A DNA stretch of 64,000 bases, taken from NCBI GenBank assembly GCA_031291825.1, contig JARLIG010000009.1, positions 983-64,982 of the forward strand, in the 5' to 3' direction. The notes below the pieces were generated by a model. That model searched no databases. It saw only the letters and a program-made list of their open reading frames with translations, and was not told where the DNA came from. Shown piece after piece: positions 11,853-49,984 of this stretch (position 1 is the stretch's first letter; every line of letters begins with the position of its first letter). The translations under genes were made by a program, and so were the position numbers. This stretch comes from Minisyncoccota bacterium (GTDB lineage Bacteria > Patescibacteriota > Minisyncoccia > Phycocordibacterales > UBA9973).

Positions 11853-11885
11853 AGAAACCCCCGCAAGGGGGTTTCGTCTTTTATG
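11853..11885. terminator. Bidirectional intrinsic-terminator-like hairpin (gaaaccccc-GCAA-gggggtttc) with flanking A/T tracts, downstream of the MazF-like gene
   Basis: Perfect 9-bp stem with a GNRA-type loop and U-tracts on both strands. It is preceded by a ggc-ttcg-gcc mini-hairpin. Confidence 0.5.
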
Positions 11886-12267
11886 GCAAGATATTGTGAA
11901 TTTTCTTAATCATTACACTAAAATCACCTTCTTTTATCATACCAATTTTTCTGGAGAGCCTTTTACTATCCAAAAGTCTTATTTGCGATAAAATACCAGC
12001 ATAAGTTTTTCCACTAAGTTCATATTGGTGATAATAATCATTATCTTTTTTTGAACTAGTTAACGGGATTGCTAAAAATATGTTGTTGTTAAATTTTCTA
12101 ATAACTAGAATAGGTCTTTCAAAGAGTTCATTTTTTCCATCTTCTTCATAGCCAATATTTTTACCTAGTGAGCAAAACCATATTTCTCTTTCATGAAAAA
12201 AGATGCCTGATTTCTTGGTTGATAAATCTTTCTTTAATTTATTCCAATCATCATATTCTTTTTCCAT
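11881..12267 (-). CDS. MazF/PemK/NdoA-family endoribonuclease toxin homologue (CcdB/MazF fold); no antitoxin gene is visible
   Basis: REIWFCSLGKNIGYEEDG...RPILVIRKFNNN..LAIPLTSS...QIRLLDSKRLSRKIGMI aligns with the PemK (GEIW..L.P..G.E..G.RPvLIV....N....V.PvTS) and NdoA (QIRTIDKQRLTDKI) signatures. It sits 6 nt after the rpoC stop. Confidence 0.7.
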   Translation of the reverse strand: MEKEYDDWNKLKKDLSTKKSGIFFHEREIWFCSLGKNIGYEEDGKNELFERPILVIRKFNNNIFLAIPLTSSKKDNDYYHQYELSGKTYAGILSQIRLLDSKRLSRKIGMIKEGDFSVMIKKIHNILP

Positions 12268-22373: not shown

Positions 22374-24311
22374 GTGAAAAATCAAACGAACAATAAAGTA
22401 CAGGGCGTTATCTCTATCTCCTCTAAAGGCACAGGCTATGTCAAGGTTTTAGACCAAAAAGACGATATTGAAATTGATTCTCGAAATCTAAAAACTGCAC
22501 TACATGGCGATACAGTAGAGGTAGTCCTCCACCCTAAAAACCACGGGCGATTAAGCGGAGAAGTTTCTAAAATAATTTCTCGCGTGAAAATTCGCTTTGC
22601 AGGAATTTTAGAAGAAGAAAATAAAATGTTTTTTTTAAAGCCGGATGATACAAAAATGTATACCGACATTTTAGTTCCGAAAGAATCTTTAAATGGCGCA
22701 AAGGGAGGACAAAAAGTTTTTGTGGAAATAACTTCTTGGGTGGACGCAAAAAAAGCTCCGCTTGGAAAAGTGGTCAAAATTTTAGGACGTCCAGGCGACA
22801 ACGATACTGAGATGCATTCGATAGCCATGGAAAAAGGTTTCGACTCCGAACTGCCACACAAAGTGGAAGAGGAAGCCAGAAGCATCAAACAAGCAGGGAT
22901 AAAAGAAAGTGATTATGCCCTACGCCGTGACTTTAGAAAAATTTTAACTTTTACGATTGACCCCTCGGACGCTAAAGATTTCGATGATGCCCTATCTTTT
23001 AAAGAAGTTGGTAACGATGAGTATGAAATTGGCATTCACATTGCGGACGTTTCGCATTATGTAAAGGTCGGTAGCGCTTTAGATATCGAAGCGCGCGAGC
23101 GAGGTACTTCTGTTTATCTAGTAGATAGAACTATTCCGATGTTGCCAGAAATTCTTTCCAATGATTTATGCAGTTTAGTTCCTAACAAAGATAGACTCAC
23201 GATGAGCGCCGTTTTTGTAATTGATAAAAATGCGCAAGTCAAAAACGAATGGTTCGGACGTACGGTAATTCACTCGCAAAAAAGATTTACTTATGAAGAA
23301 GCAGAGGTTTCCATTAAAAAATCAACTGCTCCCCTACACAAAGAGCTCGCTATTTTAAATAATTTGGCAAAAAAACTAACAAAGGAAAGATTTTCTCAAG
23401 GCGCTATTTCGCTCGACCAAGAAGAAGTAAAATTTGTCCTTGATGAAAAAGGTGTGCCAATAAAAGTTATCAAAAAAGAGCGCGGAGATTCCAATAAGCT
23501 GATTGAAGAATTTATGCTTTTAGCAAATAGAAAAGTTGCCGAAGTATTGTCTCCTAAAAAAATCAAGGGCGTAAAAGACAAAAAAGAAGAAGAAAGTGTG
23601 TCTATTTATCGTATTCATGACTTACCAAGCAAAGAAAAAATGGCCGACTTAGCATTTTTCTTACGTAGCTTGGGACATAAAGTATCTTTACAAAATGGAA
23701 TAATTCCAACTTATGAAATAAATAAATTATTGGAAAGCTTGGCGGGAAAAAATGAAGCGGATACAGTTCACCGCGCCGTGATTCGTTCAATGGCCAAAGC
23801 AATTTATTCCACAAAGAACATCGGCCACTACGGACTAGCTTTTCAATATTACACACATTTCACTTCCCCCATCCGCAGATATCCAGACATTATGATTCAC
23901 CGGCTACTGGCTGACCATTTGGCTAAGAAAAAAAATACTATAGGTAAATTAATTGAATTCGAAAAGATGAGCCGCATTGCATCCGAACAAGAAAAGCGCG
24001 CCTCTGACGCAGAAAGGGCTTCTATCAAATACAAACAAGTCGAATATATGAGTAAACGTTTGGGTAAAAGTTTTACTGGAGTCATCAGTGGTATGACCGA
24101 ATGGGGTATGTATGTGGAAGAAACAGAAACAAAGTGTGAAGGACTGGTTCGTATGCGCGACATGGACGATGATTTTTATGTTTTCAATGAAAAAAAATTA
24201 GAATTAGTCGGACAGAAAAAGAAAAAAAGTTATCGCTTGGGTGATAAAGTAAAAATAAAAGTAAAGGCCGTTGATCTAGAAAGAAAAACCATAGACTATA
24301 CTCTGCTATGA
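22374..24311 (+). CDS. rnr: Ribonuclease R (RNB family 3'-5' exoribonuclease with a C-terminal S1 domain)
   Basis: RRDFR...TIDP.DAKDFDDA RNB motifs, cold-shock-like N-terminus, S1 domain at the C-terminus. Confidence 0.9.
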   Translation: MKNQTNNKVQGVISISSKGTGYVKVLDQKDDIEIDSRNLKTALHGDTVEVVLHPKNHGRLSGEVSKIISRVKIRFAGILEEENKMFFLKPDDTKMYTDILVPKESLNGAKGGQKVFVEITSWVDAKKAPLGKVVKILGRPGDNDTEMHSIAMEKGFDSELPHKVEEEARSIKQAGIKESDYALRRDFRKILTFTIDPSDAKDFDDALSFKEVGNDEYEIGIHIADVSHYVKVGSALDIEARERGTSVYLVDRTIPMLPEILSNDLCSLVPNKDRLTMSAVFVIDKNAQVKNEWFGRTVIHSQKRFTYEEAEVSIKKSTAPLHKELAILNNLAKKLTKERFSQGAISLDQEEVKFVLDEKGVPIKVIKKERGDSNKLIEEFMLLANRKVAEVLSPKKIKGVKDKKEEESVSIYRIHDLPSKEKMADLAFFLRSLGHKVSLQNGIIPTYEINKLLESLAGKNEADTVHRAVIRSMAKAIYSTKNIGHYGLAFQYYTHFTSPIRRYPDIMIHRLLADHLAKKKNTIGKLIEFEKMSRIASEQEKRASDAERASIKYKQVEYMSKRLGKSFTGVISGMTEWGMYVEETETKCEGLVRMRDMDDDFYVFNEKKLELVGQKKKKSYRLGDKVKIKVKAVDLERKTIDYTLL

Positions 24312-26251
24312 ATAATCCCGTAAATTCGAAAACTAAACAGACTATTAGCTTAATATTCTGGATTATTTCTGCAGTGGTTATCGGAATCATAATCGCATCA
24401 TTGTTTATTAAGGGAGGTAAATATGAAGCCTCTGTGTCACCAAAAGAAAAATCTGCAACGGTAATCCAAATAATTCCACCAATTGCGCCAGACCCAAACA
24501 TTCCGCAAGCACAATATTTTTATGTAAATAAAAACGAAAATGGACAACAGCCAAATGTTTCTGCTAAGGCATACTTGGTCGGCGATTTAAACACTGGTGA
24601 GGTAATTCTTTCTAAGAATCAAGACGAAAAATTTCCAATGGCTTCTGTTTCAAAACTTATGACCGCCTTGGTCGCCACTAAAATATTAAATCCAGAAGAT
24701 GATACCGCGCAAGTGACCAAAACAGCTTTGATAATTGAAGGCAAAAGCGAAGGTAAAAATGGGGAACTTTATTCTGGACAGCAAATAACCATTAACACCC
24801 TTTTGTATCCCCTTTTACTAGAATCCAGCAACGGCGCCGCAGAAGTTATTTCCGAATATTTCGGCAAGGATGATTTCATTTCAAAAATGAACCAAGAAGC
24901 AGCTAATTTAAAAATGGCCTCCACTTCTTACGAAGACCCGAGTGGGCTTTCAGTAAATAATCAATCAACTCCATCAGATTTGTTTAAATTAACTGGATAT
25001 ATCATGCAGAATTATCCGAGTTTATTTCAACTAACCACCCTTAGAAGTTATTCCAATAAAAAACAAAGCTGGTCAAATATCAGCCAATTCGTCGGACAAA
25101 ATGGTTATGCTGGAGGCAAAGAAGGTTATACTGACGCAGCCGACCAAACCGTCGTCGCTATTTTTGATTTACCTCTCGGGCAAACTGGCTATCGTCCCAT
25201 TGCAATTACTCTTCTACAAAGCACTGACCGTAAAAAAGATGTGGAAACTATTCTGCAGTATTTGAAAAATAATATTTATTACGGCGGATTAGCAGATGCA
25301 AATACGAACTGGGTACAAGAGAAAGTCGGCTCGCCAGACATAACACAGCCGAGCTATGTGACCATGGCTTTCGCTGGAGACATTATGCTCGACCGCGGAG
25401 TGAAAGATTCTGTTATTAAAAATTTCAATGATGACTATTCGGCAATTTTTGAAAACTTAAATATCTTCAAACAATCTGATATAGCATTTGCAAACTTAGA
25501 AGGCCCTATTTCAGACCAAGGCACGAATAAAAATAATTTATATTCTTTTAGAATGGATCCTGCTGTGGCGCCAGCATTAGCTGGCGCCGGTATCAGTATT
25601 TTATCCGTAGCAAATAACCATATCGGCGATTGGGGAATTTCCGCCTTCACTGATACTTTATCAAGCTTAAATGAAAATGAAATTGCCTACACTGGCGGAG
25701 GATTAACTGAGGCAGAAGCCGACGCGCCAACAATTATAAATAAATACGGAATGAAAATTGGTTTTCTGGCTTTCTCGGATGTTGGGCCAAATGACATGGC
25801 CGCGGGAGTAAACACACCGGGAATTCTTTTAGCTAGTGACCCAAACTTTGATAACATAATAAAAAATGCTGCGAGCCAAGTTGATGACCTTGTCGTCTCT
25901 TTCCATTTCGGTGATGAATATCAAACAAAACATAATGCAAGACAAGAACAGCTAGCGCATGAAGCCGTAAATGACGGAGCAAAAATTGTTATCGGATCTC
26001 ATCCGCACGTCGTGGAAGACACAGAAATTTATAAAAATTCCTATATTGCCTATTCCCTCGGTAATTTAGTTTTTGACCAGCCTTTCAGTGCAAACACAAT
26101 GCAAGGTATGCTTCTAGAAATTCAGTTAAACAAAGATGGTTCAATGATTGTTAAAAAAGATACAACACAGCTTAATTCCGCTTTTCAAATAGCAAAAGTC
26201 ACTATCGGTAAGCCGCAGAAAATAACTTTCCCTGTGGCTAAGACAAATTAA
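24308..26251 (+). CDS. Fusion protein: N-terminal TM helix + serine-type D-Ala-D-Ala carboxypeptidase (peptidase S11/PBP5-like) + C-terminal CapA-family metallophosphoesterase (PGA_cap)
   Basis: SxxK (ASVSKLMTA), SxN (ESSNGA) and K(T/E)G motifs, followed by the CapA signatures YVTMAFAGDIMLDRGV, ANNHIGDWG and GSHPHVV. Confidence 0.75.
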   Translation: MNNPVNSKTKQTISLIFWIISAVVIGIIIASLFIKGGKYEASVSPKEKSATVIQIIPPIAPDPNIPQAQYFYVNKNENGQQPNVSAKAYLVGDLNTGEVILSKNQDEKFPMASVSKLMTALVATKILNPEDDTAQVTKTALIIEGKSEGKNGELYSGQQITINTLLYPLLLESSNGAAEVISEYFGKDDFISKMNQEAANLKMASTSYEDPSGLSVNNQSTPSDLFKLTGYIMQNYPSLFQLTTLRSYSNKKQSWSNISQFVGQNGYAGGKEGYTDAADQTVVAIFDLPLGQTGYRPIAITLLQSTDRKKDVETILQYLKNNIYYGGLADANTNWVQEKVGSPDITQPSYVTMAFAGDIMLDRGVKDSVIKNFNDDYSAIFENLNIFKQSDIAFANLEGPISDQGTNKNNLYSFRMDPAVAPALAGAGISILSVANNHIGDWGISAFTDTLSSLNENEIAYTGGGLTEAEADAPTIINKYGMKIGFLAFSDVGPNDMAAGVNTPGILLASDPNFDNIIKNAASQVDDLVVSFHFGDEYQTKHNARQEQLAHEAVNDGAKIVIGSHPHVVEDTEIYKNSYIAYSLGNLVFDQPFSANTMQGMLLEIQLNKDGSMIVKKDTTQLNSAFQIAKVTIGKPQKITFPVAKTN

Positions 26252-26255
26252 ATTT

Positions 26256-28427
26256 CTATTTTGCAATTTGGGTAGCTTCTTCAAATTTTACAGAGAGAAG
26301 TTTAGAAGCTTCATCAGAGCCGATGGTGATGCCGTAAAGCACACCAGCACGAGACATCGTCTCACGATTGTGGGTGACGACGACGAGTTGTGAATGTTTA
26401 GAAAGTTTTTCTAGCATATCTCCGTATTTGCGAGAATTTGATTCGTCTAGCGCCGCATCAGTCTCATCAAGCACCAAAAATGGTGGCGGATTTACTTGTG
26501 ACATCGCAAAAAGAAGAGCAATAGATGTGAGCGAACGTTCCCCGCCAGAGAACGCATTTATTTCTTTTACTTTCTTGTGTGGCAAAGAAACATTTATTTC
26601 AATCCCTTTTTCAAAAAGAATTTCTTCTTCCTCTGCTAAATCTTTCAGTTCATCATCTTCATCAGATTCCGTGGCTCTTTTCTTTTTCGTTTCCACCACA
26701 ATTGAAAGTGAGCCATGCCCGCCACCAAACATCAATGAAAAGAATTCCTGAAATTCAACATTTATCTTTTTCACGCCTTCTTTAAATTCAATATCAATTT
26801 TTTCTTTGAGGTCTACGATAAGTTTCTTTAAAGATTCAATACTCTTTTCCAAGTCTTCCATTTCCTTTGCTAAAAATAGGTCTCGCTCGGAAACTTCCTT
26901 AAATTCCTTGATTAATTCAGCTCCATTACCGAGTCCAGCATCTTCCAACTTTATTTTAATACGTTCAATTTTTTTCTTTAATTCGTCTTGTAGATGCCCT
27001 GCGACTTCTTCCGTCACTTGATATTCTCTGTAAGAAAAAATCTCCTGCCCAATAAGCGCTGCGCCTTCTTTTATTTCAGTTTCAAAAACTTCCGCCCGAT
27101 TTCTTAAATTACCTTCCTTGATATGCACCAACTCCAAGGCTGAAGAAAGTTCTTGGTGGCGCACCTTGAATGCGAATTTCTCACGCTCCAAATCACGCAA
27201 GGCTTCCATCTCCTTATTTATTTCCTGTTTTAAAATTTCCGCAGCATGACTGCCTTCTTTTTCTTCCGCCTCTATTTTTTTGACCTCTTCGAGCGACCTA
27301 GCTTGAGAATTTTTTAATTCCTCGAGTTCTTTTTCTTCATTATGTTTTTTCTCTATCTGTTCTGGTCCCTCTTTTATCTCACTTCCGCAAAGTGGACATC
27401 GCCCTGAAACAGCCACTTTATTTGCTCTAGCCTCCAGGATACCTTCAATACGGCCGAGTTTGCGTTCAAGCTCACCTTTGCTAGAACGTAGAGAATTTAT
27501 TCTTTGTTCGAGTAGTCTGAGTTCTTCTAAAGAAGAACCCCCACCCATCCTCCCCCTTAATAAGGGGGAGGTGTCAGAATGACGGAGGGGGTCATTATCC
27601 TCAATAATAGAAATTTTTTCGTTTACAATTTTCAGTTCATCAGAAAGTTTTTTACTTTCTCCAGATAAAGATTCTTTTTCTTGTTCTAAATAGATACTTT
27701 CCTTTTTTAAATATTCTCGATAAAGCTCCGTCAGTTCCGACTGCATTTCTTTTGTTTTCTCAAATTTTTCCACCTGCTTTTTCAAAAAGTTCAAATGCGG
27801 AGCATTTTCGCGACGCTGCAAAACAACCTCTTTCATATTCTCGTTGGTCTTTTCCAGTTTTCTTTCCGATTCTTTTATCTTGTATTGATAAATTTTGAGT
27901 CCAAGCGCATCTTCTACCATCTCCCTTCTGTCGCGTGCATTGGCATTTAAAATTCTATCTGCCTCGCCTTGGGAAATGATATGGTGTCCGCTGGAGCCGA
28001 TGTTGACCGAGGCGAGCAAATTGTGAATATCTTTTAATCTTACCTCTGTACCGTTTAAAATATATTTATTGAGTCCGTCGGAATAAACTTCACGAGAAAT
28101 CGAAATGACATCGTAATTTAAATCCAAAGTATCTCCCCCATCATTTGTAAGTTTAAAAACTTTGTCAGTATTATTAAAATATATAGTAACTGAAGCTTTA
28201 GATCCAGCTGATAATTTCTTTGAGCCTTTGAAAATCAAATCCGAGCCTCCACGCCCGCGCATAGACTTCATGGACTGCTCGCCTAAAACGAAACGAAAAG
28301 CCTCCACAATATTGGATTTTCCGGAACCGTTCGGCCCAACGATAGAAACAACTGGAGTTTCAAATTCCAAAACCGTCTTTTGCGCAAAAGATTTGAATCC
28401 ATTCAATTGAAGTGTTTTCAGCCGCAT
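26256..28427 (-). CDS. smc: SMC-family chromosome condensation ATPase, miniaturised (723 aa), with a CxxC apex in place of a canonical hinge
   Basis: N-terminus MRLKTLQLNGFKSFA...VGPNGSGKSNIVEAFRFVLGEQSMKSMRG..DLIFKG (SMC signature). C-terminal LSGGE..LVLDETDAALD. Long coiled coils. Mid-protein GRCPLCGSE. Conserved rnc-smc gene order. Confidence 0.8.
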   Translation of the reverse strand: MRLKTLQLNGFKSFAQKTVLEFETPVVSIVGPNGSGKSNIVEAFRFVLGEQSMKSMRGRGGSDLIFKGSKKLSAGSKASVTIYFNNTDKVFKLTNDGGDTLDLNYDVISISREVYSDGLNKYILNGTEVRLKDIHNLLASVNIGSSGHHIISQGEADRILNANARDRREMVEDALGLKIYQYKIKESERKLEKTNENMKEVVLQRRENAPHLNFLKKQVEKFEKTKEMQSELTELYREYLKKESIYLEQEKESLSGESKKLSDELKIVNEKISIIEDNDPLRHSDTSPLLRGRMGGGSSLEELRLLEQRINSLRSSKGELERKLGRIEGILEARANKVAVSGRCPLCGSEIKEGPEQIEKKHNEEKELEELKNSQARSLEEVKKIEAEEKEGSHAAEILKQEINKEMEALRDLEREKFAFKVRHQELSSALELVHIKEGNLRNRAEVFETEIKEGAALIGQEIFSYREYQVTEEVAGHLQDELKKKIERIKIKLEDAGLGNGAELIKEFKEVSERDLFLAKEMEDLEKSIESLKKLIVDLKEKIDIEFKEGVKKINVEFQEFFSLMFGGGHGSLSIVVETKKKRATESDEDDELKDLAEEEEILFEKGIEINVSLPHKKVKEINAFSGGERSLTSIALLFAMSQVNPPPFLVLDETDAALDESNSRKYGDMLEKLSKHSQLVVVTHNRETMSRAGVLYGITIGSDEASKLLSVKFEEATQIAK
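27540..27600. repeat. GC-rich double hairpin (cctccccc-ttaataa-gggggagg; aatgac..gtcatt) embedded in frame within the smc coding sequence
   Basis: Seen directly. It encodes the DPLRHSDTSPLLRGRMGGG segment inside an otherwise AT-rich coiled-coil region. Confidence 0.5.
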
Positions 28428-28439: not shown

Positions 28440-29270
28440 TTATAGCACTTTTTCTATTTCTTTTGATAAAAAAATCAACCAATCATTTAAAAGCTTAATG
28501 ATAATTCTGGAATCATCTGTTGGGTTTATCGCCATTTCTAGTGTCTTATACATTTCGTTTTTTTTCTCAGGATAATATTTTGAAAAACTTTCATAGCAAG
28601 TATATAAATCCCTAGTATATTTCTGTTCACGCTCCATTACCAATTCAAATCCAGTTCTTATAATACGTTTCATTATAAATGAACATTTATCTTTATACTC
28701 TTTTATATCTTGGTGTTGTTCATTTTTAAATGAATGAATATTTTTCTCTATATCATTTTTAATATCTTTATAGATAAAAGCACACTCTTTTCCTGGTTTT
28801 AATTTTGGAATATTATCGAATATATCTTTTCCATAAATACATACCGCTTGAGTTTTGAGAATTATATGTGTACCTTTTTCTTTATTAACTGCACGTTCTG
28901 GTGTAACAACAAAAATTTCAACCCTACGAACAAACGGATATTCAGTAATAATTTTTTTATTAAATTCGTTTCTCCATTCTGTGTTTATTTGTTCTTTTGG
29001 AAGATTAACAATTGCTATAGTGTCTAAGTCTGATATTTCGTCAATAGCCAAACCTTCTGCCACTGAACCTCTTATGTAAACAGAGTTAAGTATATCCCCG
29101 AAATATTTTATGTAAACATTTTTAGTTTCTTCTATGACTGGTTTCCATTTTTTTTGAAATCTATCTTCAGAAACTTTTTTTACAATAAAGCCATCTTTGT
29201 CTACCTCAAGATATCCACCGATTTTTTGTATTTTCTTTTCCATTATTACTCTTGATTTTAATCCAACCAA
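28440..29270 (-). CDS. Nucleotidyltransferase of the ANT(3'')/ANT(9) (AadA-like) family: pol-beta-type NTase domain + helical C-terminal domain
   Basis: GS-x9-SDLD motif (IRGSVAEGLAIDEISDLDTIAIV) and VEIFVV align with the AadA GSAVDGGLKPHSDIDLLV/VEVTIVV pattern. Confidence 0.55.
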   Translation of the reverse strand: MVGLKSRVIMEKKIQKIGGYLEVDKDGFIVKKVSEDRFQKKWKPVIEETKNVYIKYFGDILNSVYIRGSVAEGLAIDEISDLDTIAIVNLPKEQINTEWRNEFNKKIITEYPFVRRVEIFVVTPERAVNKEKGTHIILKTQAVCIYGKDIFDNIPKLKPGKECAFIYKDIKNDIEKNIHSFKNEQHQDIKEYKDKCSFIMKRIIRTGFELVMEREQKYTRDLYTCYESFSKYYPEKKNEMYKTLEMAINPTDDSRIIIKLLNDWLIFLSKEIEKVL

Positions 29271-29953
29271 TTTTTTACTTTTAAGGCGCCCATGGCGGCT
29301 GATTGTTCAGCTTCCTGTTTTGATTTGCCTTTGCCTTCGGCAATCAAGTCTCCCCCAAAGAAAATACCCACGGTAAAATGCTTGTCATGGTCTGGGCCTG
29401 ACTGAGTCAAAACTTTATAAGCCGGTGTGACAGACACAAATTCCTGTGCTTTTTCTTGCACCAGAGACTTCGCATCACGCCAAAGTTTTTTATTCACAAT
29501 TTCTTCGGTTTTTGGCAAAAGAGTTTTGGTGATGAATTTATTGGTGACTTCATAACCTTGGTCTATATAGATAGCTCCAACTAGCGCCTCATAAGTATTG
29601 GCTAAAATATACATTCGCGCCTTGCCGTAATCTTTCGCTTCACCTTTTGACAGAAGCAAATAATCATTCATTCCTACCTCACTCGCTATTTCAGAGATAA
29701 TGATGGCATTCACTAGAGCTGAACGCAGAGCCGTCAATTCCCCCTCTGTATAATTCGGATATTTTTTATAAAGAAAATCAGTGACGATAAGCTCAAGCAC
29801 AGCGTCGCCTAAAAATTCTAAACGTTCGTTGTGCGAGTGTGATGTTCCTCCATTCTCATTGATATAAGAACGGTGCGTAAAAGATTGTTTTAGTAAAGCT
29901 TTATTTTTAAAAACTACTTTTATTTTTTTTTCAAAATCGGAAAATTGTATCAT
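29258..29953 (-). CDS. rnc: Ribonuclease III
   Basis: ERLEFLGDAVLELIVTDFLY signature plus a C-terminal dsRBD (GKGKSKQEAEQSAA). Confidence 0.92.
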   Translation of the reverse strand: MIQFSDFEKKIKVVFKNKALLKQSFTHRSYINENGGTSHSHNERLEFLGDAVLELIVTDFLYKKYPNYTEGELTALRSALVNAIIISEIASEVGMNDYLLLSKGEAKDYGKARMYILANTYEALVGAIYIDQGYEVTNKFITKTLLPKTEEIVNKKLWRDAKSLVQEKAQEFVSVTPAYKVLTQSGPDHDKHFTVGIFFGGDLIAEGKGKSKQEAEQSAAMGALKVKNWLD

Positions 29954-29964: not shown

Positions 29965-30885
29965 CTATTTTTTGGTGATAATTTCAATTGCCTTAGCAAT
30001 CAACGGGATTATGTCATTATAAATTCGCAGTTCTGGAATTGCTGAAAGCGGAAACCATCTTGCGCCATCCAACCCACCAGACTTTTCCAATTCAAGTTCT
30101 TTGTAATCGCTTTTAGCTAAAAAGTAAACCACCTTTTTCAAACTCTTTCCCTTTTCTGGATGAGTCGCCACATATTCATTATCTCCAAGTTTTTCTTCTA
30201 ATTGAATATCTAATCCTATTTCTTTTTTAATTATTTTAATCGTTCCAACTTGTACATCCTCACCTGCTTCAAGCTTGCCCTTAGACAGAGTCCAATACCC
30301 AAAAACATCATGCACTAAGGCAAATAAAAATTCGTCGTCTTTTTTGGCATATACTAACGCGCCACTTAAAGTTTCCACTGGTAGCTGAGTAATATCCAGC
30401 GGTTCATCATGTTTCTTTTTTTTGCTGATTTGTTCTTTGCCAGGTTCGCCTATTTCTTTGTAGACGGCACCTAAAACACCATTTACAAATTTACCAGAAT
30501 TTTCTCCGCCGAAAGTTTTTGCCAGTTCGATTGATTCATTGATAGCAACCTTCGGAGGAACTTCTTTGCGGTCACCAAAAAGTAGTTCTGCTAAACCGAT
30601 ACGCAAGATATTTCTATCAATAATAGAAATTTTATCAATCGGCCAATCTGGCGCGGCTTTTTCGATGATTTCATCAATTACCACGCGCTTCTTTAGAACT
30701 TGGTCAATCAGAGAAAAGACAAAAGCATCATCTTCAAAACCAGGAGCAAATTCTTTTAAATTTCTTTTTAAAACGTTTTTTATCTCCTCATTTGATAGGT
30801 CGGCGCTTTTTTTATTATCAGGAGAAAAATCCAATTCAAAAAGGGTCTGAAGAACTATTGATCTGGAAAGGTGCCTATTTGACAT
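29965..30885 (-). CDS. nusB: NusB antitermination-factor domain fused to a C-terminal (degenerate) Nudix hydrolase domain
   Basis: N-terminal NusB core (RSIVLQTLFELDF). C-terminal ~150 aa with a Nudix-like box GKLEAGEDVQVGTIKIIKKEIGL (the REUxEE catalytic residues are mostly replaced). Confidence 0.65.
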   Translation of the reverse strand: MSNRHLSRSIVLQTLFELDFSPDNKKSADLSNEEIKNVLKRNLKEFAPGFEDDAFVFSLIDQVLKKRVVIDEIIEKAAPDWPIDKISIIDRNILRIGLAELLFGDRKEVPPKVAINESIELAKTFGGENSGKFVNGVLGAVYKEIGEPGKEQISKKKKHDEPLDITQLPVETLSGALVYAKKDDEFLFALVHDVFGYWTLSKGKLEAGEDVQVGTIKIIKKEIGLDIQLEEKLGDNEYVATHPEKGKSLKKVVYFLAKSDYKELELEKSGGLDGARWFPLSAIPELRIYNDIIPLIAKAIEIITKK

Positions 30886-33944: not shown

Positions 33945-36035
33945 CTAGATATCGATTTCGGCTAGCTTGGCGTTTGATTGGATGAATGATTTTCTGGGGG
34001 GAACTTCGGAGCCCATCAGAATATCAAAAATTTTATTTGCTTCTTCGGCGTCACCAATCATTACTTTTTTTAAGACACGATGCGCTGGATCCATGGTCGT
34101 CTCCCAAAGTTCTTCTGGATTCATTTCTCCGAGACCTTTATAGCGCTGAATATGAATCTTGTTTGATTTTTTAGCAGTTTCTTCTTTTGTTTCTTCTTCC
34201 TCTTCGATGGGTTCATCTCCCTCTACTACTTCTTGTATCTCGCTTACATCTCCACTCTTGCCCACAATTTTTATTTTTTCTTCATCAGTATAAGCGTAAG
34301 AAATTTCTTTGCCTTTTTTTATTTTATAAAGCGGTGGTTGAGCGATATAAATGTATCCAGCATCAATCACTGCTCTGAAATATCGATAGAAAAGAGTCAG
34401 TAATAGTGTGCTGATGTGCGCACCGTCCACGTCGGCATCGGTCGCAATGATTATTTTATGATAACGCATTTTTTCTAAATCAAAGGTATCACCAATCGAG
34501 GTGCCCATAGCAATCACCAACGATTTCACTTCTCTGGAAGCTAACATCTTGTCTATACGCGCACGCTCAACATTTAAAATCTTTCCTCGAAGTGGCAAGA
34601 TGGCTTGAGTTCGACGATCTCGTCCTTGTTTCGCACTACCGCCCGCAGAATCTCCCTCCACAATAAATAGTTCCGAGTCAGCAGCATTTTTACTTTGACA
34701 ATCAGCCAACTTTCCCGGCAAAGTCATACCTTCAAGTGCGCCTTTACGTAAAATAGAATCCTTTGCGGCTTTGGCGGCTTTACGAGCCTTTAAGGCAAGA
34801 ATTGATTTATTGATTATGACTTTTGCTTCATCGGGATTTTCTTCTAAGAAGTTTGCAAAAGCTTCGCCGAAAACAGTCGCTACGGCACCCTGAGCTTCCA
34901 TACTGCCGAGCTTAGCCTTAGTCTGACCTTCAAATTGTATTTCGCGAAGCTTTACAGAGATGACTGCTGTCAAACCTTCCAAAACATCATCGCCGGTAAA
35001 TCCACCTTCGGACTCTTTCATCATTTCATTCTTCTTGCAGTAAGTATTTAAGGTTCGAGTCAAAGCTGTTTTAAAACCAGTCACATGTGTACCACCTTCT
35101 GGTGTATTGATATTGTTCGCAAAAGGAATAATGCGTTCTGAAATATCATCCACGTATTGCAAAGCTATTTCCACGCCGACATTGTCTAACTCTTTTTCAA
35201 CATAAAAAATATTATTCTGAACTGGCTTTTGAAATTTATTTAAATATTTTACGAGCGAAACCAACCCACCTTCGAAATAGAAAGACACGGAAGGAATCTC
35301 CAACCCGAGTTCTCTAAAATAGAATACGTCCGATGTGTCTATTTTTCCTTCCACTCCGCGGGCGTCAATAATAAGTATTTTTAATTTTTTAACCAGGTAG
35401 GCTTGTTGACGAATGTGAGCCACAACCGTATTCCAATCAAATTTTATATCGCCAAAGATTTCTTTGTCCGGTTCAAAAGTGATAATTGTGCCGTGCAGTT
35501 TTGAAGAACTCACTTTTTTGACTGCAGACTTTCTTTTACCCTGAGAATATTCTTGCATATATCTGCCACCATCGCGACAAACTTCTGCTTCACAGAAAAC
35601 AGAAAGCGCATTCACAACAGAAGCGCCGACTCCGTGCAATCCTCCAGAGACTTTATATCCTTCTCCGCCGAATTTTCCTCCAGCATGCAGTGTAGTCATA
35701 ACAGTTTCGAGTGCAGAAACTTTTGTCTTCTTGTGCATATCCACGGGAATACCTCGGCCATTGTCGGCTACGCGAATTCGATTATTTGGCAAAAGTACAA
35801 TTTCAATATCATCACAAAAACCACCCATCGCTTCATCACGGGAATTGTCAAAAATCTCCCAAACTAGGTGGTGTAAGCCTTCAGGACCAGTTGTACCAAT
35901 GTACATACCAGGACGGCGCCTAACAGGCTCTAGGCCCTCTAGAACTGAAATGTCAGAAGCATCATAACGATGCCCCTTGTCGGAGACATTATCTGTTCTG
36001 CCGGCATCTTTTTTGCCCTCTTTTCCTTTTGCCAT
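33945..36035 (-). CDS. gyrB: DNA gyrase subunit B (type IIA topoisomerase ATPase subunit; GyrB/ParE)
   Basis: GHKL ATPase motifs, EGDSAGG, PLRGKILN, the TOPRIM domain and an acidic C-terminal tail. Confidence 0.9.
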   Translation of the reverse strand: MAKGKEGKKDAGRTDNVSDKGHRYDASDISVLEGLEPVRRRPGMYIGTTGPEGLHHLVWEIFDNSRDEAMGGFCDDIEIVLLPNNRIRVADNGRGIPVDMHKKTKVSALETVMTTLHAGGKFGGEGYKVSGGLHGVGASVVNALSVFCEAEVCRDGGRYMQEYSQGKRKSAVKKVSSSKLHGTIITFEPDKEIFGDIKFDWNTVVAHIRQQAYLVKKLKILIIDARGVEGKIDTSDVFYFRELGLEIPSVSFYFEGGLVSLVKYLNKFQKPVQNNIFYVEKELDNVGVEIALQYVDDISERIIPFANNINTPEGGTHVTGFKTALTRTLNTYCKKNEMMKESEGGFTGDDVLEGLTAVISVKLREIQFEGQTKAKLGSMEAQGAVATVFGEAFANFLEENPDEAKVIINKSILALKARKAAKAAKDSILRKGALEGMTLPGKLADCQSKNAADSELFIVEGDSAGGSAKQGRDRRTQAILPLRGKILNVERARIDKMLASREVKSLVIAMGTSIGDTFDLEKMRYHKIIIATDADVDGAHISTLLLTLFYRYFRAVIDAGYIYIAQPPLYKIKKGKEISYAYTDEEKIKIVGKSGDVSEIQEVVEGDEPIEEEEETKEETAKKSNKIHIQRYKGLGEMNPEELWETTMDPAHRVLKKVMIGDAEEANKIFDILMGSEVPPRKSFIQSNAKLAEIDI

Positions 36036-39909: not shown

Positions 39910-42900
39910 TTACAATTGTTTATATATCTCGGCCATTTGGCAATACTCGCACTCTGTATTTTTACCATAGGAATTGTAGTTACAAGGGCGAGCCATCCAT
40001 TCCCCTGTTTTTACCAGATGGTCGTAATCTTTAATATCTTTAATTAGAAGTTCTATCTTCTTCTCATCAATAAAAGTACTGTAAAAATTATCTTTGTCAT
40101 TTTTTGCTTCCAAAAATTCCAAAACTGATTCCTGCACGTTTACTTTATTTTTTCTACTTTCCTTTAAAAGAAAAGAGTACATCGCCAACTGGCGCATATA
40201 ATCGCTCATTCTTCCCTCTTCATTTATCTTTTCTATATCAATTTTCTTGCGAGCATTGCCAGTCTTAAAATCAACCACTCGCACATTTTCTACACCAAGC
40301 TCTTCCACCAAGTCGAGTTTTCCATAAATATTTAAATGTGGGAATTCTTTCGCATGAATGGAGATGCTTTTTTCATTTTCTCTTTTTTCGCTGATTTCTG
40401 GTAATCTACTTTTGACCCATTTAGCAACAATCTTTAAAGCTTCTTTGTTATTCCCCACAAAAGCAATCATTTCTTTTTCCGTCGGAATCTTCTTTAATTT
40501 TAAGATTTTATCAATCGCTCCATGAACAGTATTTCCAAATTCCAAACTTTCACTTTTTGGTTCCGGTAATTTAAGCAGATTCCTAAAATACCATTTACGT
40601 GGACATTCAAAGAAATTATTGAGTAAAGATACAGAAACATTTGTATCGAGATATTCCCGCGCAACCATTTTGGTTAATTTTTCTAAAACATTTTCGGTAT
40701 TTTCTACTTTGGTTGAAATAACATAATTTTTTGGGTCACTCGCAATAATTTTACTCTCAGTTTCCGAAAAAGAAAATTTATTGAAAACTTTAGAAATACC
40801 AGAAACATCTGATACTATTTTAGCCAGTTCCTGCCCTTGTCCGCTGTAAGAAAATCTTGAATAAGATATATTGCAAAATCTTTTAGCTCGAGTAATTGCC
40901 ACATAAAGCTCTCGCTTGGCCGTCATTTCATCTTTGGCCTCTATCTTTGAAGCGACAGAAAGAGGTAAAGTAAAGTTGTTACGCTTTCCTTTCATTAATC
41001 CATTCTCATCCATGTGTGCTATCCAAACAAAATCAAATTCCAAACCTTTAGAACCATGCAAGGTCATCACCTTTACGCCTTCATCACTTTGGAAAACAGC
41101 AAGCGGAACATCTTCCCCATATTCACGAAGTCTTTCAATAAAAGAAATATACTCAGGCAAAGAACTTTTGGATTTTTTATTTTCATTAATATTTTTCTCT
41201 GAAAAAGAAAGTGCTAAGTGAAGCAAAGTCCGAATAACTTCAATTCGACGCATTAGTTCTTCATGATTTTTCGCGGTTTTGATTAAAACCTCATCTCCAG
41301 CCAACTGAATCAAGCCATAAACGTCAGAAGAACTTTGTCCAACAACCAAGTTTTTTAATTTTTCTGCCCAAGCTTTGATTGCTCCATCTTTATTAAACAA
41401 ATCATCTTGCAGAGAAAGCATTTCTTCTAAAGAAATATCTTTGCCATGTTTTTTATATAAATATTCATGTGCTGAAAAAATAGGTATGCCAACAATGGGA
41501 TCCAGTAATGTTTCCGACAAAGAAACTGCATCATTGATGTTCGCACAAATTTTCAAAACCCTAAACAATGTTTCAAATTCCAATGTTTCAAAAAGTGTCA
41601 TATTTTGCATTGAAGCAACCTTGATGCCCATATCTTTTAAAACTCTGATAGCCGAAATCACTTGCCTATTTTTAGGAACCAGCACGGCGCAACTATTAAT
41701 ATCAACTTTATCATTTTTAATTGTTCTGCTTTGCTCACCACCTTCCGTTTTTTCTTTGATTTGTAAACCGCAAGCGATAATTTCGTCACGTGGATAATCG
41801 CATTCAATCAAATTTAAATTATTATTTTCCTTCAAGGTGGCAATTAATTTTTCGGTGGAAAAAGAACTGGAAAGTAAACTGTCGGCGGTATTTAAAATAT
41901 TTTCAGTTGAACGATAATTGTTGGTTAGAAATATTACCTTAGCCTTGCCGAACATTGTTTTAAATTCTTCAAAATGCGACATTTTAGCGCCACCGAAGGC
42001 ATAAATCAGTTGACGGTCGTCACCAACCGCAAAAATACTCGGATGATCTTCTTTTTGCCAAATGGCTTTGAGTAAATCATTTTGCGCCCCGCTTGAATCC
42101 TGGTGTTCATCAATCAAAACATATAAATATTTTTCCTGGATTTCTGCTCGAGCCTCTTCACCTTTTTCCATTATTTCAATCGCATACTTTATGACATCAT
42201 CATAGTCCATCAAGTACTTTTCTCGTTTATGCTTTTCATACAGTTCATAGAAGGTGACAATTTCTTTAGTTCGCTCCAAGCTTTCAATTCTCGTCACAAA
42301 TTCTTTTTTCATTTTTCCCTTACTTTCGCCACGAGTAGAAATGCTATCTTCGTCCCGCTCGATGTGAGATATTTCATCTTCAATTTCTTTTAGAAATTCT
42401 TTCGGCGTCAGTCTTTCCCGCTTTAAAAGAGAAATTAGGGATTTTAATTCTTTAAAATGTCTACCGATGTCTCCTCTCGGACGCAAATACCTCCAATCGT
42501 TTTCACGCAAAATTTCATCGCAGATTGAAACACTCTCCGCATCTTCCAAAATTCTTGGCGCTAAATCAAAATCAAGCAGAGAATAAAACTCTTCCACTAT
42601 CTGCCCTGCAAATTTATGAAAGGTAAGAATATGCACACGGGAAGCTGTGTTGCCAATATATCTGGTGAGCCTATCCCGCATCGCCCGTACGGCGGAATTT
42701 GTAAAAGTCAGACACAAAACTCCATCTGCTCCGATATCTGTTTTTTTTAAAATATTGCCAATACGCAAGGCTAAAATCTGCGTTTTTCCTGTACCTGGAC
42801 CAGCCACAACCATTACCGGACCATCAATGGTTTCTACCGCCTCCTTCTGCGCAGGGTTCAGCTTCTTGTATTCTTCTTCGAATTTTTCGGCAGTCACACT

Positions 42901-42915
42901 AATATTATATACCAA
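39910..42915 (-). CDS. UvrD/PcrA-family superfamily-1 DNA helicase fused to a C-terminal PD-(D/E)XK (RecB/Cas4-like) nuclease domain with a 4-Cys cluster
   Basis: Walker A AGPGTGKTQIL; helicase motifs through TLHGSKGLEFD and YVAITRAK; C-terminal C..RKWYF ... CNYNSYGKNTECEYC. Confidence 0.75.
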   Translation of the reverse strand: MVYNISVTAEKFEEEYKKLNPAQKEAVETIDGPVMVVAGPGTGKTQILALRIGNILKKTDIGADGVLCLTFTNSAVRAMRDRLTRYIGNTASRVHILTFHKFAGQIVEEFYSLLDFDLAPRILEDAESVSICDEILRENDWRYLRPRGDIGRHFKELKSLISLLKRERLTPKEFLKEIEDEISHIERDEDSISTRGESKGKMKKEFVTRIESLERTKEIVTFYELYEKHKREKYLMDYDDVIKYAIEIMEKGEEARAEIQEKYLYVLIDEHQDSSGAQNDLLKAIWQKEDHPSIFAVGDDRQLIYAFGGAKMSHFEEFKTMFGKAKVIFLTNNYRSTENILNTADSLLSSSFSTEKLIATLKENNNLNLIECDYPRDEIIACGLQIKEKTEGGEQSRTIKNDKVDINSCAVLVPKNRQVISAIRVLKDMGIKVASMQNMTLFETLEFETLFRVLKICANINDAVSLSETLLDPIVGIPIFSAHEYLYKKHGKDISLEEMLSLQDDLFNKDGAIKAWAEKLKNLVVGQSSSDVYGLIQLAGDEVLIKTAKNHEELMRRIEVIRTLLHLALSFSEKNINENKKSKSSLPEYISFIERLREYGEDVPLAVFQSDEGVKVMTLHGSKGLEFDFVWIAHMDENGLMKGKRNNFTLPLSVASKIEAKDEMTAKRELYVAITRAKRFCNISYSRFSYSGQGQELAKIVSDVSGISKVFNKFSFSETESKIIASDPKNYVISTKVENTENVLEKLTKMVAREYLDTNVSVSLLNNFFECPRKWYFRNLLKLPEPKSESLEFGNTVHGAIDKILKLKKIPTEKEMIAFVGNNKEALKIVAKWVKSRLPEISEKRENEKSISIHAKEFPHLNIYGKLDLVEELGVENVRVVDFKTGNARKKIDIEKINEEGRMSDYMRQLAMYSFLLKESRKNKVNVQESVLEFLEAKNDKDNFYSTFIDEKKIELLIKDIKDYDHLVKTGEWMARPCNYNSYGKNTECEYCQMAEIYKQL

Positions 42916-45936: not shown

Positions 45937-46446
45937 TTAATAAGTAGTGGTCAGTTCGCGGGCTACCGAACCAGCTGGTCCAAGACAGGAACTACCTCCA
46001 ATATTATAACCACTAGCACTAACGGTAGTATGGGGAGAGTTAGTTTTTTTATCTACTTTCACAGCAACACATCCATTACCAGTACTACCAAGACCCGAAA
46101 TAATGAAATTCCAGACCAATGAACCTGAGCCAGCTTCGTTTGCTGTCACAGTACTATTGTTACAAGTGATCTGGGGATTATTACCATCAACAAAAGCCAC
46201 CACAGAGCCATAAGGATTATCGCCATTTGGGTTATCATAAAAAAGCGCACATTCCACACCAGTATCAGCGGCAAAAAAAGCATCATTAGTGTCTATCGCC
46301 GAAGTACTAAAATTATTTTCTTTCAAAGCGATTTGGCCCACACCGAGCGCGATTGATAAAAAAATAGCCGCCAAGGTAACCGCAAAGAGTAACACGAATC
46401 CCCTATTTTCTTTTATTTTTTTAAAAATCATAATAATTAATACCAA
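45937..46446 (-). CDS. Type IV pilus minor pilin-like protein (PilX-like; hydrophobic N-terminus, Cys pair in the C-terminal domain)
   Basis: N-terminal RGFVLLFAVTLAAIFLSIAL helix, last gene of the minor-pilin operon. Lacks the canonical GFTLxE. Confidence 0.45.
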   Translation of the reverse strand: MVLIIMIFKKIKENRGFVLLFAVTLAAIFLSIALGVGQIALKENNFSTSAIDTNDAFFAADTGVECALFYDNPNGDNPYGSVVAFVDGNNPQITCNNSTVTANEAGSGSLVWNFIISGLGSTGNGCVAVKVDKKTNSPHTTVSASGYNIGGSSCLGPAGSVARELTTTY

Positions 46447-47105: not shown

Positions 47106-47108
47106 ATC

Positions 47109-47798: not shown

Positions 47799-47799
47799 A

Positions 47800-48438: not shown

Positions 48439-48451
48439 GATATTTATTCAA

Positions 48452-49345: not shown

Positions 49346-49358
49346 TATTCAATAAATA

Positions 49359-49910: not shown

Positions 49911-49939
49911 TAAGATATTTAATAATAATTAAATCTTTT

Positions 49940-49975: not shown

Positions 49976-49984
49976 AACCACTCC

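What the first reader, a model, noticed from the sequence alone, without database searches (positions are those of the whole stretch)
26256..28427. Miniaturised SMC (723 aa) with a CxxC zinc-hook-like apex instead of a hinge domain
The head domain carries unambiguous SMC signatures (FKSF..GPNGSGKSN..FVLGEQS..MRG..DLIFKG at the N-terminus; LSGGE and a D-loop at the C-terminus). It sits in the canonical rnc-smc position. The protein is ~450 aa shorter than bacterial SMC. The middle of the coiled coil contains GRCPLCGSE rather than the ~150-aa GGG-rich hinge, which is the Rad50/SbcC-style zinc hook. An SMC head combined with a hook-type dimerisation apex would be an unusual hybrid, and it is relevant to how reduced genomes condense chromosomes. 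ScpA/ScpB partners are not in the window.
Basis: partly seen in the sequence, partly recalled or inferred. Interest (0 to 1): 0.6.

Follow-up and report, generated by a model that had tools for sequence, protein, structure and literature searches.

The report
Hinge-less bacterial SMC with zinc-hook apex
This Patescibacteria genome's chromosome-organising SMC protein is half the usual length, has no hinge domain, and instead carries at its tip a conserved Cys-x-x-Cys loop like the zinc hook of the DNA-repair protein Rad50, which looks like a natural version of a hinge-to-hook swap previously made only by engineering.

Summary
ORF 26256-28427(-) encodes a 723-aa protein (NCBI MDR3519606.1, annotated only as 'AAA family ATPase'). 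Its head, neck and joint are bacterial-Smc type, it has no hinge, and its only two cysteines (C344, C347) lie in the loop joining two roughly equal coiled-coil arms.

The apex profile's only significant PDB matches are the P. furiosus Rad50 zinc hook. That similarity is short, depends on the CPxCG motif, and is below Pfam's cutoff. The gene sits in the conserved housekeeping nusB-rnc-smc locus, so it is the positional Smc orthologue, not a Rad50, SbcC or LmuB paralogue.

New context: it belongs to a large hinge-less 'mini-Smc' family (about 700-770 aa) in Paceibacteria. A minority carry the CxxC hook. Both apex types occur in the same locus and are interleaved in the tree, including well-supported mixed clades, which suggests interchangeable apex cassettes.

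Zinc binding, dimerisation through the hook, and the kleisin partner are inferred, not shown. I found no description of a natural hook-bearing Smc. Verdict: new variant of a known kind; interest about 0.7.

The parts
26256..28427 (-). Complete mini-Smc ORF, 723 aa plus stop codon (NCBI MDR3519606.1)
27903..28427 (-). N-terminal half of the ABC ATPase head (residues 1-175): Walker A G31-S38, arginine finger R57, Q-loop Q153
27411..27896 (-). N-terminal arm (residues 178-339): helix 178-277 (neck and joint region, highly conserved), a break, then helix 298-339 ending in the conserved LGRIEG motif
27543..27581 (-). Disordered 13-aa insertion HSDTSPLLRGRMG (residues 283-295) in the N-arm break. 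It is present in only about 14 of 120 close homologues. Its Gly run continues into G296-G297; this is not a hinge remnant
27363..27410 (-). Apex loop VSGRCPLCGSEIKEGP (residues 340-355) between the two arm helices; the putative zinc hook
27387..27398 (-). CPLC (C344, C347), the only cysteines in the protein and the proposed Zn ligands, two per protomer
26727..27362 (-). C-terminal arm (residues 356-567): helices 356-468, 477-497 and 502-567, with joint-like breaks at 469-476 and 498-501
26259..26726 (-). C-terminal half of the head (residues 568-723): acidic disordered loop 582-603, signature FSGGE 626-630, Walker B/D-loop 650-661, H-loop H686
29258..29953 (-). rnc (RNase III), the conserved upstream neighbour that marks the housekeeping smc locus (context)
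28440..29270 (-). 276-aa ORF inserted between rnc and smc. It is unique to this window and is not part of the SMC system (context)

Best explanation
This gene is the organism's housekeeping Smc (condensin ATPase) in a shortened, hinge-less form.

Shown:
- Each chain folds back on itself into a canonical Smc head, neck and joint plus a single antiparallel coiled-coil arm of about 150-180 residues per strand, roughly half the length of B. subtilis Smc.
- The arm ends in a 16-residue loop that carries the protein's only two cysteines.

Inferred:
- Two chains dimerise tip-to-tip by jointly coordinating one Zn2+ with their four cysteines (2+2), as in the Rad50/SbcC zinc hook. This would replace the constitutive dimerisation normally supplied by the hinge.
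- The ATP-dependent heads, probably bridged by a kleisin encoded elsewhere, close the ring or rod, which then loads on and moves along chromosomal DNA like Smc-ScpAB.

Family context. The hook is one of two interchangeable apex modules in a hinge-less Paceibacteria Smc family.
For: Identity as Smc:
- NCBIfam SMC_prok_B 487 bits, E = 1e-145, against Rad50 72, ASRP 51 and RecN 50 bits.
- PDB sequence matches are to Smc heads (3e-74), with Rad50 at 1e-10.
- Foldseek's top hit is 5XEI, the Smc head with coiled coil and joint (3e-32), followed by Smc-ScpA complexes.
- All ATPase motifs are invariant in the family alignment.
- Synteny is conserved across the window and more than 40 related loci: thrS, L32, nusB-NUDIX, rnc, smc, PBP/CapA, RNase R, S16, KH, trmD, rpoBC.
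- One locus per assembly was found among 51 loci.

No hinge:
- No PF06470 match.
- AlphaFold (pLDDT 81.9) gives helix, loop, helix at the apex.
- No SMC hinge structure is matched by the apex sequence or profile at E<=10.

Hook:
- The CxxC is centred: family medians are 155 and 149 residues to conserved landmarks on either side.
- Across 29 diverse apex segments with 34% mean column identity, only G27, C46 and C49 are invariant.
- 130 of 158 hook-type proteins have no other cysteine, so there are only two ligands per chain.
- The only PDB hits below E = 0.1 are the P. furiosus Rad50 hook entries 1L8D and 6ZFF (E = 1.1e-3 for the single sequence; 2.8e-4 and 6.8e-4 for the profile).
- hhalign gives 94% probability over 48 columns.
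- The hydrophobic residue four positions after Cys2 is conserved, as in CPVCGREL.

Functional plausibility:
- A B. subtilis Smc whose hinge was replaced by the Pf Rad50 zinc hook supports normal growth (PMC5344682).
- A Rad50 whose hook was replaced by the MukB hinge is functional in fission yeast (PMC6969161).
Against: - No direct evidence exists for Zn binding or dimerisation. Only a monomer could be modelled, and the apex loop has pLDDT of about 50.
- The Pfam Rad50_zn_hook match is below threshold: 13 bits against a 24.3-bit cutoff; 8 of 29 members match at E<=1, the best at 9e-4.
- The Rad50 similarity disappears when the two Cys and the Gly are mutated in silico. It may therefore reflect convergence on a CPxCG hairpin rather than homology.
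- Close orthologues (about 74% identity, same locus) have no cysteine at all and a helical cap instead. The hook is therefore not indispensable to this Smc lineage, and other dimer contacts may exist.
- No ScpA or ScpB was found in the window or in about 1 Mb of related loci. This is uninformative, because these genes are usually unlinked to smc.
- Whether a second, hinge-bearing Smc exists elsewhere in the genome could not be checked.
Confidence: 0.7

Rival explanations
1. The protein is the housekeeping hinge-less Smc, but the CxxC is not an inter-protomer zinc hook. Dimerisation would come from arm-arm and head contacts. The cysteine pair would do something else, for example bind a metal together with a partner protein, sense redox state, or simply stabilise the turn.
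For: Cysteine-free orthologues with a helical cap occupy the same locus, and hook and helical forms are interleaved in the tree. Rad50_zn_hook is below Pfam's cutoff. The apex loop is modelled with low confidence.
Against: Only two Zn ligands are available per chain: no other position in the apex is invariant, and H362 is variable. Tetrahedral coordination therefore needs a second copy or a partner. The exact apex position, the CPxCG plus hydrophobic pattern, and the specific top PDB hits to Rad50 hooks all match the hook. Absolute conservation of both cysteines in an otherwise cysteine-depleted family is more than a turn-stabiliser would need.
Confidence: 0.15
2. The hook joins different Smc complexes rather than the two arms of one complex. 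It would then work as an inter-complex tether, as proposed for some Rad50 states, so these mini-Smcs would bridge DNA segments instead of forming a single rod or ring.
For: [quoted passage not shown] Nothing here fixes the arm geometry.
Against: High-speed AFM shows Rad50 hooks acting as constitutive intra-complex dimerisers (PMC6969161). Smc(Zh) chimeras show near-normal arm-arm association (PMC5344682). The mini-Smc has no other constitutive dimerisation domain.
Confidence: 0.08
3. It is not an Smc but a member of the CxxC branch of SMC-like ATPases (Rad50/SbcC repair ATPase, Lamassu LmuB defence ATPase, or an ASRP/ClsN-like protein).
For: It has a CxxC apex and a short coiled coil. PADLOC LmuB matches at 99 bits over residues 1-688 and mad3 at 201 bits. 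There are weak Rad50 and ASRP NCBIfam hits.
Against: SMC_prok_B scores 487 bits against Rad50 72 (cutoff 1000) and ASRP 51 (cutoff 300). Structure and sequence matches are to Smc heads and the Smc joint. The neighbours are housekeeping genes, with no SbcD/Mre11, LmuA or LmuC in the window or the six annotated related loci. The rnc-smc synteny is conserved.
Confidence: 0.03
4. It is an artefact or a decaying gene: an assembly error or an internal deletion of the hinge in a pseudogene.
For: None beyond the unusual length.
Against: The ORF is intact. More than 380 homologues of 640-800 aa come from many independent assemblies and sources. The ATPase motifs are invariant, and arm lengths are tightly conserved.
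Confidence: 0.01

Closest known systems
Bacterial Smc of the Smc-ScpAB condensin (e.g. B. subtilis Smc; NCBIfam TIGR02168 SMC_prok_B)
   Same: Head, neck and joint by sequence and fold. All ATPase motifs are present. The rnc-smc gene order is shared. It has a folded-back antiparallel coiled coil.
   Different: It has no hinge domain. The arms are about 150-180 residues, against 344 in B. subtilis. The total length is 723 aa against about 1180. It scores below the curated full-length cutoff (487 < 567). The apex is a CxxC loop. No kleisin partner has been identified.
Engineered B. subtilis Smc(Zh), in which the hinge is replaced by the P. furiosus Rad50 zinc hook (Burmann et al. 2017, PMC5344682)
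   Same: The same architecture: an Smc head and arm ending in a CxxC hook. The engineered protein supports normal growth, and shortened arms are tolerated in discrete length classes.
   Different: That protein is a laboratory chimera with a transplanted archaeal hook. This one is a natural gene, with a family of relatives and its own hook sequence. The natural arm is shorter than the shortest functional class tested in detail (253-267 aa) and lies nearer the minor natural mode of 163 aa reported there; this comparison is approximate.
Rad50/SbcC zinc hook (PDB 1L8D, 6ZFF; Pfam PF04423)
   Same: A CPxCG motif at the tip of an antiparallel coiled coil, with two Cys per chain and a hydrophobic residue four positions after Cys2. 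These are the best and only significant PDB matches.
   Different: The match is below Pfam's gathering score and depends on the motif. The head is Smc-type, not Rad50-type. There is no Mre11/SbcD neighbour.
Archaea-specific SMC-related proteins (ASRP, including coalescin ClsN and Sph1/2; PMC9389158)
   Same: SMC-superfamily proteins involved in chromosome organisation (ClsN) that carry a zinc-hook motif where a hinge would be, with short coiled coils.
   Different: ASRPs are archaeal and form a family distinct from SMC. The NF045487 score here is 51 bits against a 300-bit cutoff. This protein is a bona fide bacterial Smc orthologue.
Hinge-less SMC variants of marine Actinobacteria (Sussfeld et al. 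2025, PMC12153180)
   Same: SMC-clade proteins that have lost the hinge domain, recognised from metagenomes.
   Different: Those sequences are explicitly reported to lack the CXXC motif. They are actinobacterial and may be paralogues. The present family is from Patescibacteria, is a positional orthologue of smc, and a subset carries CxxC.
Lamassu LmuB (PMC12663957)
   Same: An SMC-like ATPase with a short coiled coil in which the CxxC hook is variably present (0, 1 or 2 copies) across the family. This gives a precedent for evolutionary lability of the hook.
   Different: LmuB belongs to the SbcC-derived CxxC branch and sits in defence operons with LmuA and LmuC. The PADLOC LmuB score here is 99 bits against 487 for Smc, and the neighbours are housekeeping genes.

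Membership tests
Bacterial Smc (TIGR02168 SMC_prok_B) | Split ABC ATPase head with Walker A, Q-loop, signature, Walker B, D-loop and H-loop of SMC type | tested here: met
   Smc head structures match at 3e-74. Foldseek top hit is 5XEI at 3e-32. The motifs are invariant in A1.
Bacterial Smc (TIGR02168 SMC_prok_B) | Full-length score above the curated equivalog cutoff | tested here: not met
   487.3 bits against a cutoff of 567.35. Only the head-proximal parts align.
Bacterial Smc (TIGR02168 SMC_prok_B) | Central hinge dimerisation domain (Pfam PF06470) | tested here: not met
   No SMC_hinge hit at E<=1 on the full protein or at E<=10 on the middle region. AlphaFold shows helix, loop, helix. No hinge structure is matched.
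Bacterial Smc (TIGR02168 SMC_prok_B) | Long intramolecular antiparallel coiled coil with a joint | tested here: met
   AlphaFold helices 178-339 and 356-567 with breaks. The model matches the Smc head plus coiled coil plus joint structure. The arm is about half the usual length.
Bacterial Smc (TIGR02168 SMC_prok_B) | Housekeeping genomic position immediately downstream of rnc | tested here: met
   rnc ends 5-35 bp before smc in 30 of 35 related loci. In the window a 276-aa ORF is inserted between them.
Bacterial Smc (TIGR02168 SMC_prok_B) | Kleisin and kite partners ScpA/ScpB encoded in the genome | not testable with these tools
   None in the 64-kb window or in the flanks of related loci. Whole genomes could not be scanned.
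Rad50/SbcC | CxxC zinc hook at the coiled-coil apex | tested here: met
   CPLC lies in the apex loop. The top PDB hits are Rad50 hooks. Zn binding itself was not tested.
Rad50/SbcC | Pfam Rad50_zn_hook (PF04423) above the gathering score | tested here: not met
   13.1-13.4 bits against 24.3. 8 of 29 family members match at E<=1, the best at 9.4e-4.
Rad50/SbcC | Rad50/SbcC-type head | tested here: not met
   Rad50 NCBIfam models score 29-72 bits against cutoffs of 700-1087. Rad50 PDB heads match at 1e-10 against Smc at 3e-74.
Rad50/SbcC | Adjacent Mre11/SbcD nuclease gene | tested here: not met
   No such gene in the window or among annotated neighbours in L001-L006.
Archaea-specific SMC-related proteins (ASRP/ClsN) | NF045487 above cutoff; archaeal distribution | tested here: not met
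   51.3 bits against 300. All relatives are Patescibacteria.
Lamassu LmuB | Operon with the LmuA effector (and LmuC) | tested here: not met
   The LmuB model scores 99 bits, but the neighbours are rnc, nusB, RNase R and ribosomal genes.
Hinge-less actinobacterial SMC variants (PMC12153180) | Hinge absent and CXXC absent; Actinomycetes affiliation | tested here: not met
   The hinge is absent, but CxxC is present and the lineage is Patescibacteria. Direct sequence comparison with that cluster was not possible.

The most novel reading that the evidence does not exclude
Paceibacteria as a class would run chromosome organisation with a half-length, hinge-less Smc as their only SMC. In that Smc the dimerising tip is a swappable cassette, either a Rad50-like zinc hook or a small helical cap, and the two cassettes have been exchanged repeatedly between lineages by recombination. 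That would be natural proof that neither the hinge fold nor hinge-DNA contacts are needed for Smc function. It would also break the accepted split between 'hinge SMCs' (chromosome folding) and 'CxxC SMCs' (repair and defence).
Probability: 0.45. Interest if true: 0.8.

Novelty: new variant of a known kind. Interest (0 to 1): 0.7.

Why it matters
The hinge is treated as a defining SMC feature, and several models of loading and loop extrusion give it an active role. One recent paper sorts the superfamily into hinge SMCs, which organise chromosomes, and CxxC SMCs, which act in repair or defence (PMC12663957).

This is a bona fide Smc orthologue that has lost the hinge across a large bacterial lineage and, in a subset, carries a CxxC hook. 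That gives a natural counterpart to the engineered B. subtilis Smc(Zh) (PMC5344682). It also gives minimal natural constructs of about 710 aa for structural and single-molecule work, and paired orthologues that differ essentially only in their apex module.

The family bears on how ultra-small cells with genomes under about 1 Mb organise their DNA, and on how modular the SMC tip is in evolution.

In practice, these proteins are currently annotated mostly as 'AAA family ATPase' and fall below the curated Smc cutoff, so automated surveys will record Smc as absent in these genomes.

Tried and rejected
Steps that led nowhere:
- An exact-sequence contig look-up for the window protein found no record, so neighbourhoods were taken from homologues instead.
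- Two literature searches for ScpA/ScpB in Patescibacteria gave nothing relevant.
- tblastn with B. subtilis ScpA and ScpB sequences recalled from memory (unverified) found nothing in about 1 Mb of related loci. This is not informative, because scpAB is usually unlinked to smc.

Readings considered and rejected:
- The GGG at residues 295-297 is not a hinge remnant. It lies in and next to a disordered insertion found in only about 14 of 120 close homologues.
- The helical cap of sister proteins is not a degenerate hinge. It has no beta strands and no PDB hinge match.
- Rad50/SbcC, RecN, ASRP and LmuB identities are excluded by scores and gene context.
- An intramolecular Zn site is unlikely, because no further conserved ligand exists and H362 is variable.
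- A single origin of the hook within the query's clade is not supported: the hook split was recovered in 0 of 200 bootstrap replicates, and mixed clades have 90-96% support.

Limits. Family-wide counts of apex switches (at least 3 in every bootstrap replicate) rest on star-like NJ trees and are only indicative.
Full report
**Observation**

ORF 26256-28427 on the minus strand encodes a 723-aa protein. It is identical to NCBI MDR3519606.1, 'AAA family ATPase' from a Candidatus Paceibacterota MAG.

Pfam finds SMC_N spanning residues 3-706 (196 bits) and no SMC_hinge. NCBIfam's bacterial Smc model SMC_prok_B scores 487 bits (E = 1e-145). That is below its full-length cutoff of 567, because only the head-proximal parts align. 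Rad50 models reach 72 bits at most, ASRP 51 and RecN 50. The best matches among solved structures are Smc heads from B. subtilis and related species (3e-74); Rad50 heads come in at 1e-10.

The protein has exactly two cysteines, C344 and C347, in GRCPLCGSE (coordinates checked).

**Architecture**

An AlphaFold2 model built on a 107-sequence alignment (mean pLDDT 81.9) gives these parts:

- head: residues 1-175 and 570-723
- helix 178-277
- disordered break 278-297
- helix 298-339
- 16-residue loop 340-355 carrying both cysteines (low confidence, as expected for a monomer modelled without metal)
- helix 356-468
- short breaks at 469-476 and 498-501
- helices back to the head

There is no globular middle domain. 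Foldseek against the PDB returns the Smc head with coiled coil and joint (5XEI, 3e-32) and Smc-ScpA complexes first; Rad50 appears only at rank 23.

A heptad scan of the family alignment agrees with two arms separated by a Gly/Pro-rich turn at the CxxC. Between conserved landmarks (G176 and E495), the CxxC sits 168 and 148 residues away in this protein. The family medians are 155 and 149, with narrow distributions, so it is at the apex.

The GGG at 295-297 lies in and next to a disordered 13-aa insertion found in only about 14 of 120 close homologues.

**Is the apex a zinc hook?**

Evidence that it is:

- The apex fragment's only notable PDB hits are the two P. furiosus Rad50 zinc-hook entries: 1L8D at E = 1.1e-3 and 6ZFF at 6.4e-3. 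The alignment runs from GELERKLGRIEG through CPLCGSEI.
- A profile of 29 diverse apex segments improves these to 2.8e-4 and 6.8e-4, and the next hits are generic zinc fingers at E >= 0.1.
- hhalign gives 94% probability over 48 columns.
- In that profile (34% mean column identity) only one glycine and the two cysteines are invariant.
- 130 of 158 hook-type proteins have no other cysteine. The family is strongly cysteine-depleted, with about 5e-4 chance CxxC expected per protein.
- No further conserved ligand exists, and H362 is variable. With two ligands per chain, a tetrahedral Zn site needs a second chain, which is the Rad50 hook arrangement.

Evidence that limits the claim:

- Pfam Rad50_zn_hook stays below its gathering score (13 bits against 24.3; 8 of 29 members match at E<=1).
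- Mutating the two Cys and the Gly in silico abolishes the PDB hits.

My conclusion is that the apex very probably works like a Rad50 hook. Homology to it is not established, and convergence on a CPxCG hairpin is equally possible.

**Family context (new relative to the finding)**

The 120 closest database proteins (73-100% identity, 706-777 aa) come from Nomurabacteria, Pacebacteria and Paceibacterota, and 113 of them keep CPxCG. A filter-free HMMER search of 1.84 billion cluster representatives returns as its best 150 only proteins of 643-797 aa plus two shorter fragments (524 and 584 aa), at 41-73% identity, and none of about 1180 aa. The hinge-less 'mini-Smc' is therefore a large, diverse family.

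Only 7 of those 150 have a CxxC, and they are the shorter ones. The rest carry, after the shared LGRIEG motif, a cysteine-free insert of about 40 extra residues. AlphaFold models this insert in the orthologue P0098 as two short helices (348-366 and 375-386) with no beta strands. It matches no solved hinge.

A search seeded with a distant hook-type member found further hook clades, including Vogelbacteria, with their own signatures: CPxCGQ, C[GS]ACGQ, CxYC[GA]Q and CR[TY]C[KG]Q.

**Orthology and apex switching**

Hook and helical forms occupy the same locus: thrS, L32, nusB-NUDIX, rnc, smc, PBP/CapA, RNase R, S16, KH, trmD, rpoB, rpoC. This holds in the window and in L001-L006. rnc ends 5-35 bp before smc in 30 of 35 loci. 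Identity between hook and helical orthologues drops only around residues 330-375.

Among 38 full-length proteins from species-representative genomes, 22 are hook-type and 16 helical, with one locus per assembly. In NJ trees built without the apex columns:

- The helical cap is the root state and the majority state.
- Every family-wide bootstrap replicate needs at least 3 apex-state changes.
- Within the query's own clade, the hook split is recovered in 0 of 200 replicates. Mean distances are equal within and between types: 0.270, 0.263 and 0.275.
- There are well-supported mixed clades. The query and L007 (hook) group with P0087 (helical) at 96%. Hook-type L012 sits inside a helical clade at 90%.
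- At the DNA level, L012 is 75-83% identical to helical L035 over most of the gene but 40-50% at the apex, where it is 76-86% identical to other hook genes. Its C-terminal arm is closer to the helical genes.

Within this clade each cassette type is clearly homologous to itself. The simplest reading is that the apex segment has been exchanged between lineages, or that an old polymorphism has been shuffled by recombination. This is an inference from distance trees and needs formal recombination tests.

**Mechanism**

Shown:
- an Smc-type ATPase head with all catalytic motifs under strict conservation
- an Smc neck and joint
- a half-length arm
- a CxxC loop at the tip
- the housekeeping genomic position

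Inferred:
- Two chains share one Zn2+ through their four cysteines, giving the constitutive dimer that the hinge normally provides.
- The heads engage on ATP and are bridged by a kleisin encoded elsewhere.
- The complex loads on and translocates along DNA like Smc-ScpAB.

The inference is made plausible by two published experiments. A B. subtilis Smc with the Pf Rad50 hook in place of the hinge supports normal growth (PMC5344682). A fission-yeast Rad50 with the MukB hinge in place of its hook is functional (PMC6969161).

The arm length is about 165-183 residues when B. subtilis head boundaries are mapped through the alignment. This is approximate. It lies near the minor 163-aa mode of natural arm lengths and about two coiled-coil superhelical periods below the 344 aa of B. 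subtilis. That survey located arms by aligning a hinge, so I infer that it would have missed hinge-less proteins.

**Partners**

No ScpA, ScpB, MukE/F-like, Rad50/SbcC or SbcD gene was detected in the window or next to smc in related loci. This neither supports nor refutes a kleisin partner, because whole genomes could not be scanned.

**Comparison with the literature**

- The library holds no description of a natural Smc with a zinc hook.
- Hinge-less SMC variants have been reported in marine Actinobacteria, explicitly without CXXC (PMC12153180).
- Zinc hooks are known in Rad50/SbcC, in archaeal ASRP/ClsN (PMC9389158), and variably in Lamassu LmuB (PMC12663957).
- PMC12663957 states the usual dichotomy of hinge SMCs for chromosome organisation and CxxC SMCs for repair and defence.
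- The present protein is on the hinge side by its head, locus and family, yet carries a CxxC tip.

**Verdict**

The finding is real and its interpretation is supported. It is best described as a new variant of a known kind: a natural hinge-less Smc with a Rad50-like hook, which is one of two interchangeable apex modules in a Paceibacteria mini-Smc family.

| Claim | Confidence |
|---|---|
| It is the housekeeping Smc orthologue | about 0.9 |
| The CxxC is an inter-chain zinc hook | about 0.7-0.75 |

Interest: 0.7.

Noticed in passing
window 28440-29270 (-): A 276-aa ORF sits between rnc and smc and overlaps the end of rnc by 13 nt if the first TTG start is used. It has no Pfam match and no tblastn hit in any of 57 related loci, so it is an insertion specific to this genome. 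By eye it has a nucleotidyltransferase-like 'RGS...SDLD' motif; this was not tested.
   Followed up: partly
P0098/L002-L003; P0087; L023, L025, L028-L030, L032-L035, L037, L038, L043, L051: Close orthologues (about 70-79% identity, same locus) replace the CxxC loop with a cysteine-free insert of about 45 aa. AlphaFold models it as two short helices, and it has no PDB match. How these cap-type mini-Smcs dimerise is unknown.
   Followed up: partly
L012 versus L035/L030 and L008/L018 (smc genes): DNA identity is mosaic. The apex of L012 groups with hook-type genes, while its C-terminal arm groups with helical-type genes. This suggests recombination that exchanges the apex cassette between Nomurabacteria lineages.
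   Followed up: partly
window 29965-30885 (-): A NusB-NUDIX fusion protein of 306 aa lies upstream of rnc. The fusion is conserved in related genomes (L001, L002, L003, L005).
   Followed up: no
window 24308-26251 (+): A fusion of a D-Ala-D-Ala carboxypeptidase domain (Peptidase_S11) with a CapA/PGA_cap domain lies convergent with smc. It is conserved in relatives L001-L003.
   Followed up: no
window ~45937-58351 (-): A type IV pilus gene cluster: at least five N_methyl pilin-like genes, a prepilin peptidase, a PilB-type T2SSE ATPase, a response regulator, and PilM and PilO homologues.
   Followed up: no
window 11881-12267 (-) and 7193-7666 (-): A MazF/PemK-type toxin gene lies immediately downstream of rpoC, and a DUF559 endonuclease-like gene lies nearby. 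No antitoxin was looked for.
   Followed up: no
L001 852-4229 versus window 33945-36035: gyrB in the related genome GCA_028718635.1 carries an intein (1125 aa, Intein_splicing). The window's gyrB ORF is 696 aa, and the corresponding gyrB in L002/L003 (699 aa) has no intein domain.
   Followed up: no
L004 3167-3835: In the Vogelbacteria relative, an IS200-like Y1 transposase gene lies directly downstream of the hook-type smc.
   Followed up: no
window 26259-26726 (-), residues 582-603: An acidic, disordered loop of about 21 aa (KKRATESDEDDELKDLAEEEE) is inserted in the C-terminal head relative to B. subtilis Smc. It is variable across the family, and its function is unknown.
   Followed up: no
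window 39910-42915 (-) and 43659-45914 (-): An AddA-like UvrD helicase with a PD-(D/E)XK nuclease domain lies close to an NAD-dependent DNA ligase. The ligase's adenylation-domain match is split into two stretches, which may indicate an insertion.
   Followed up: no
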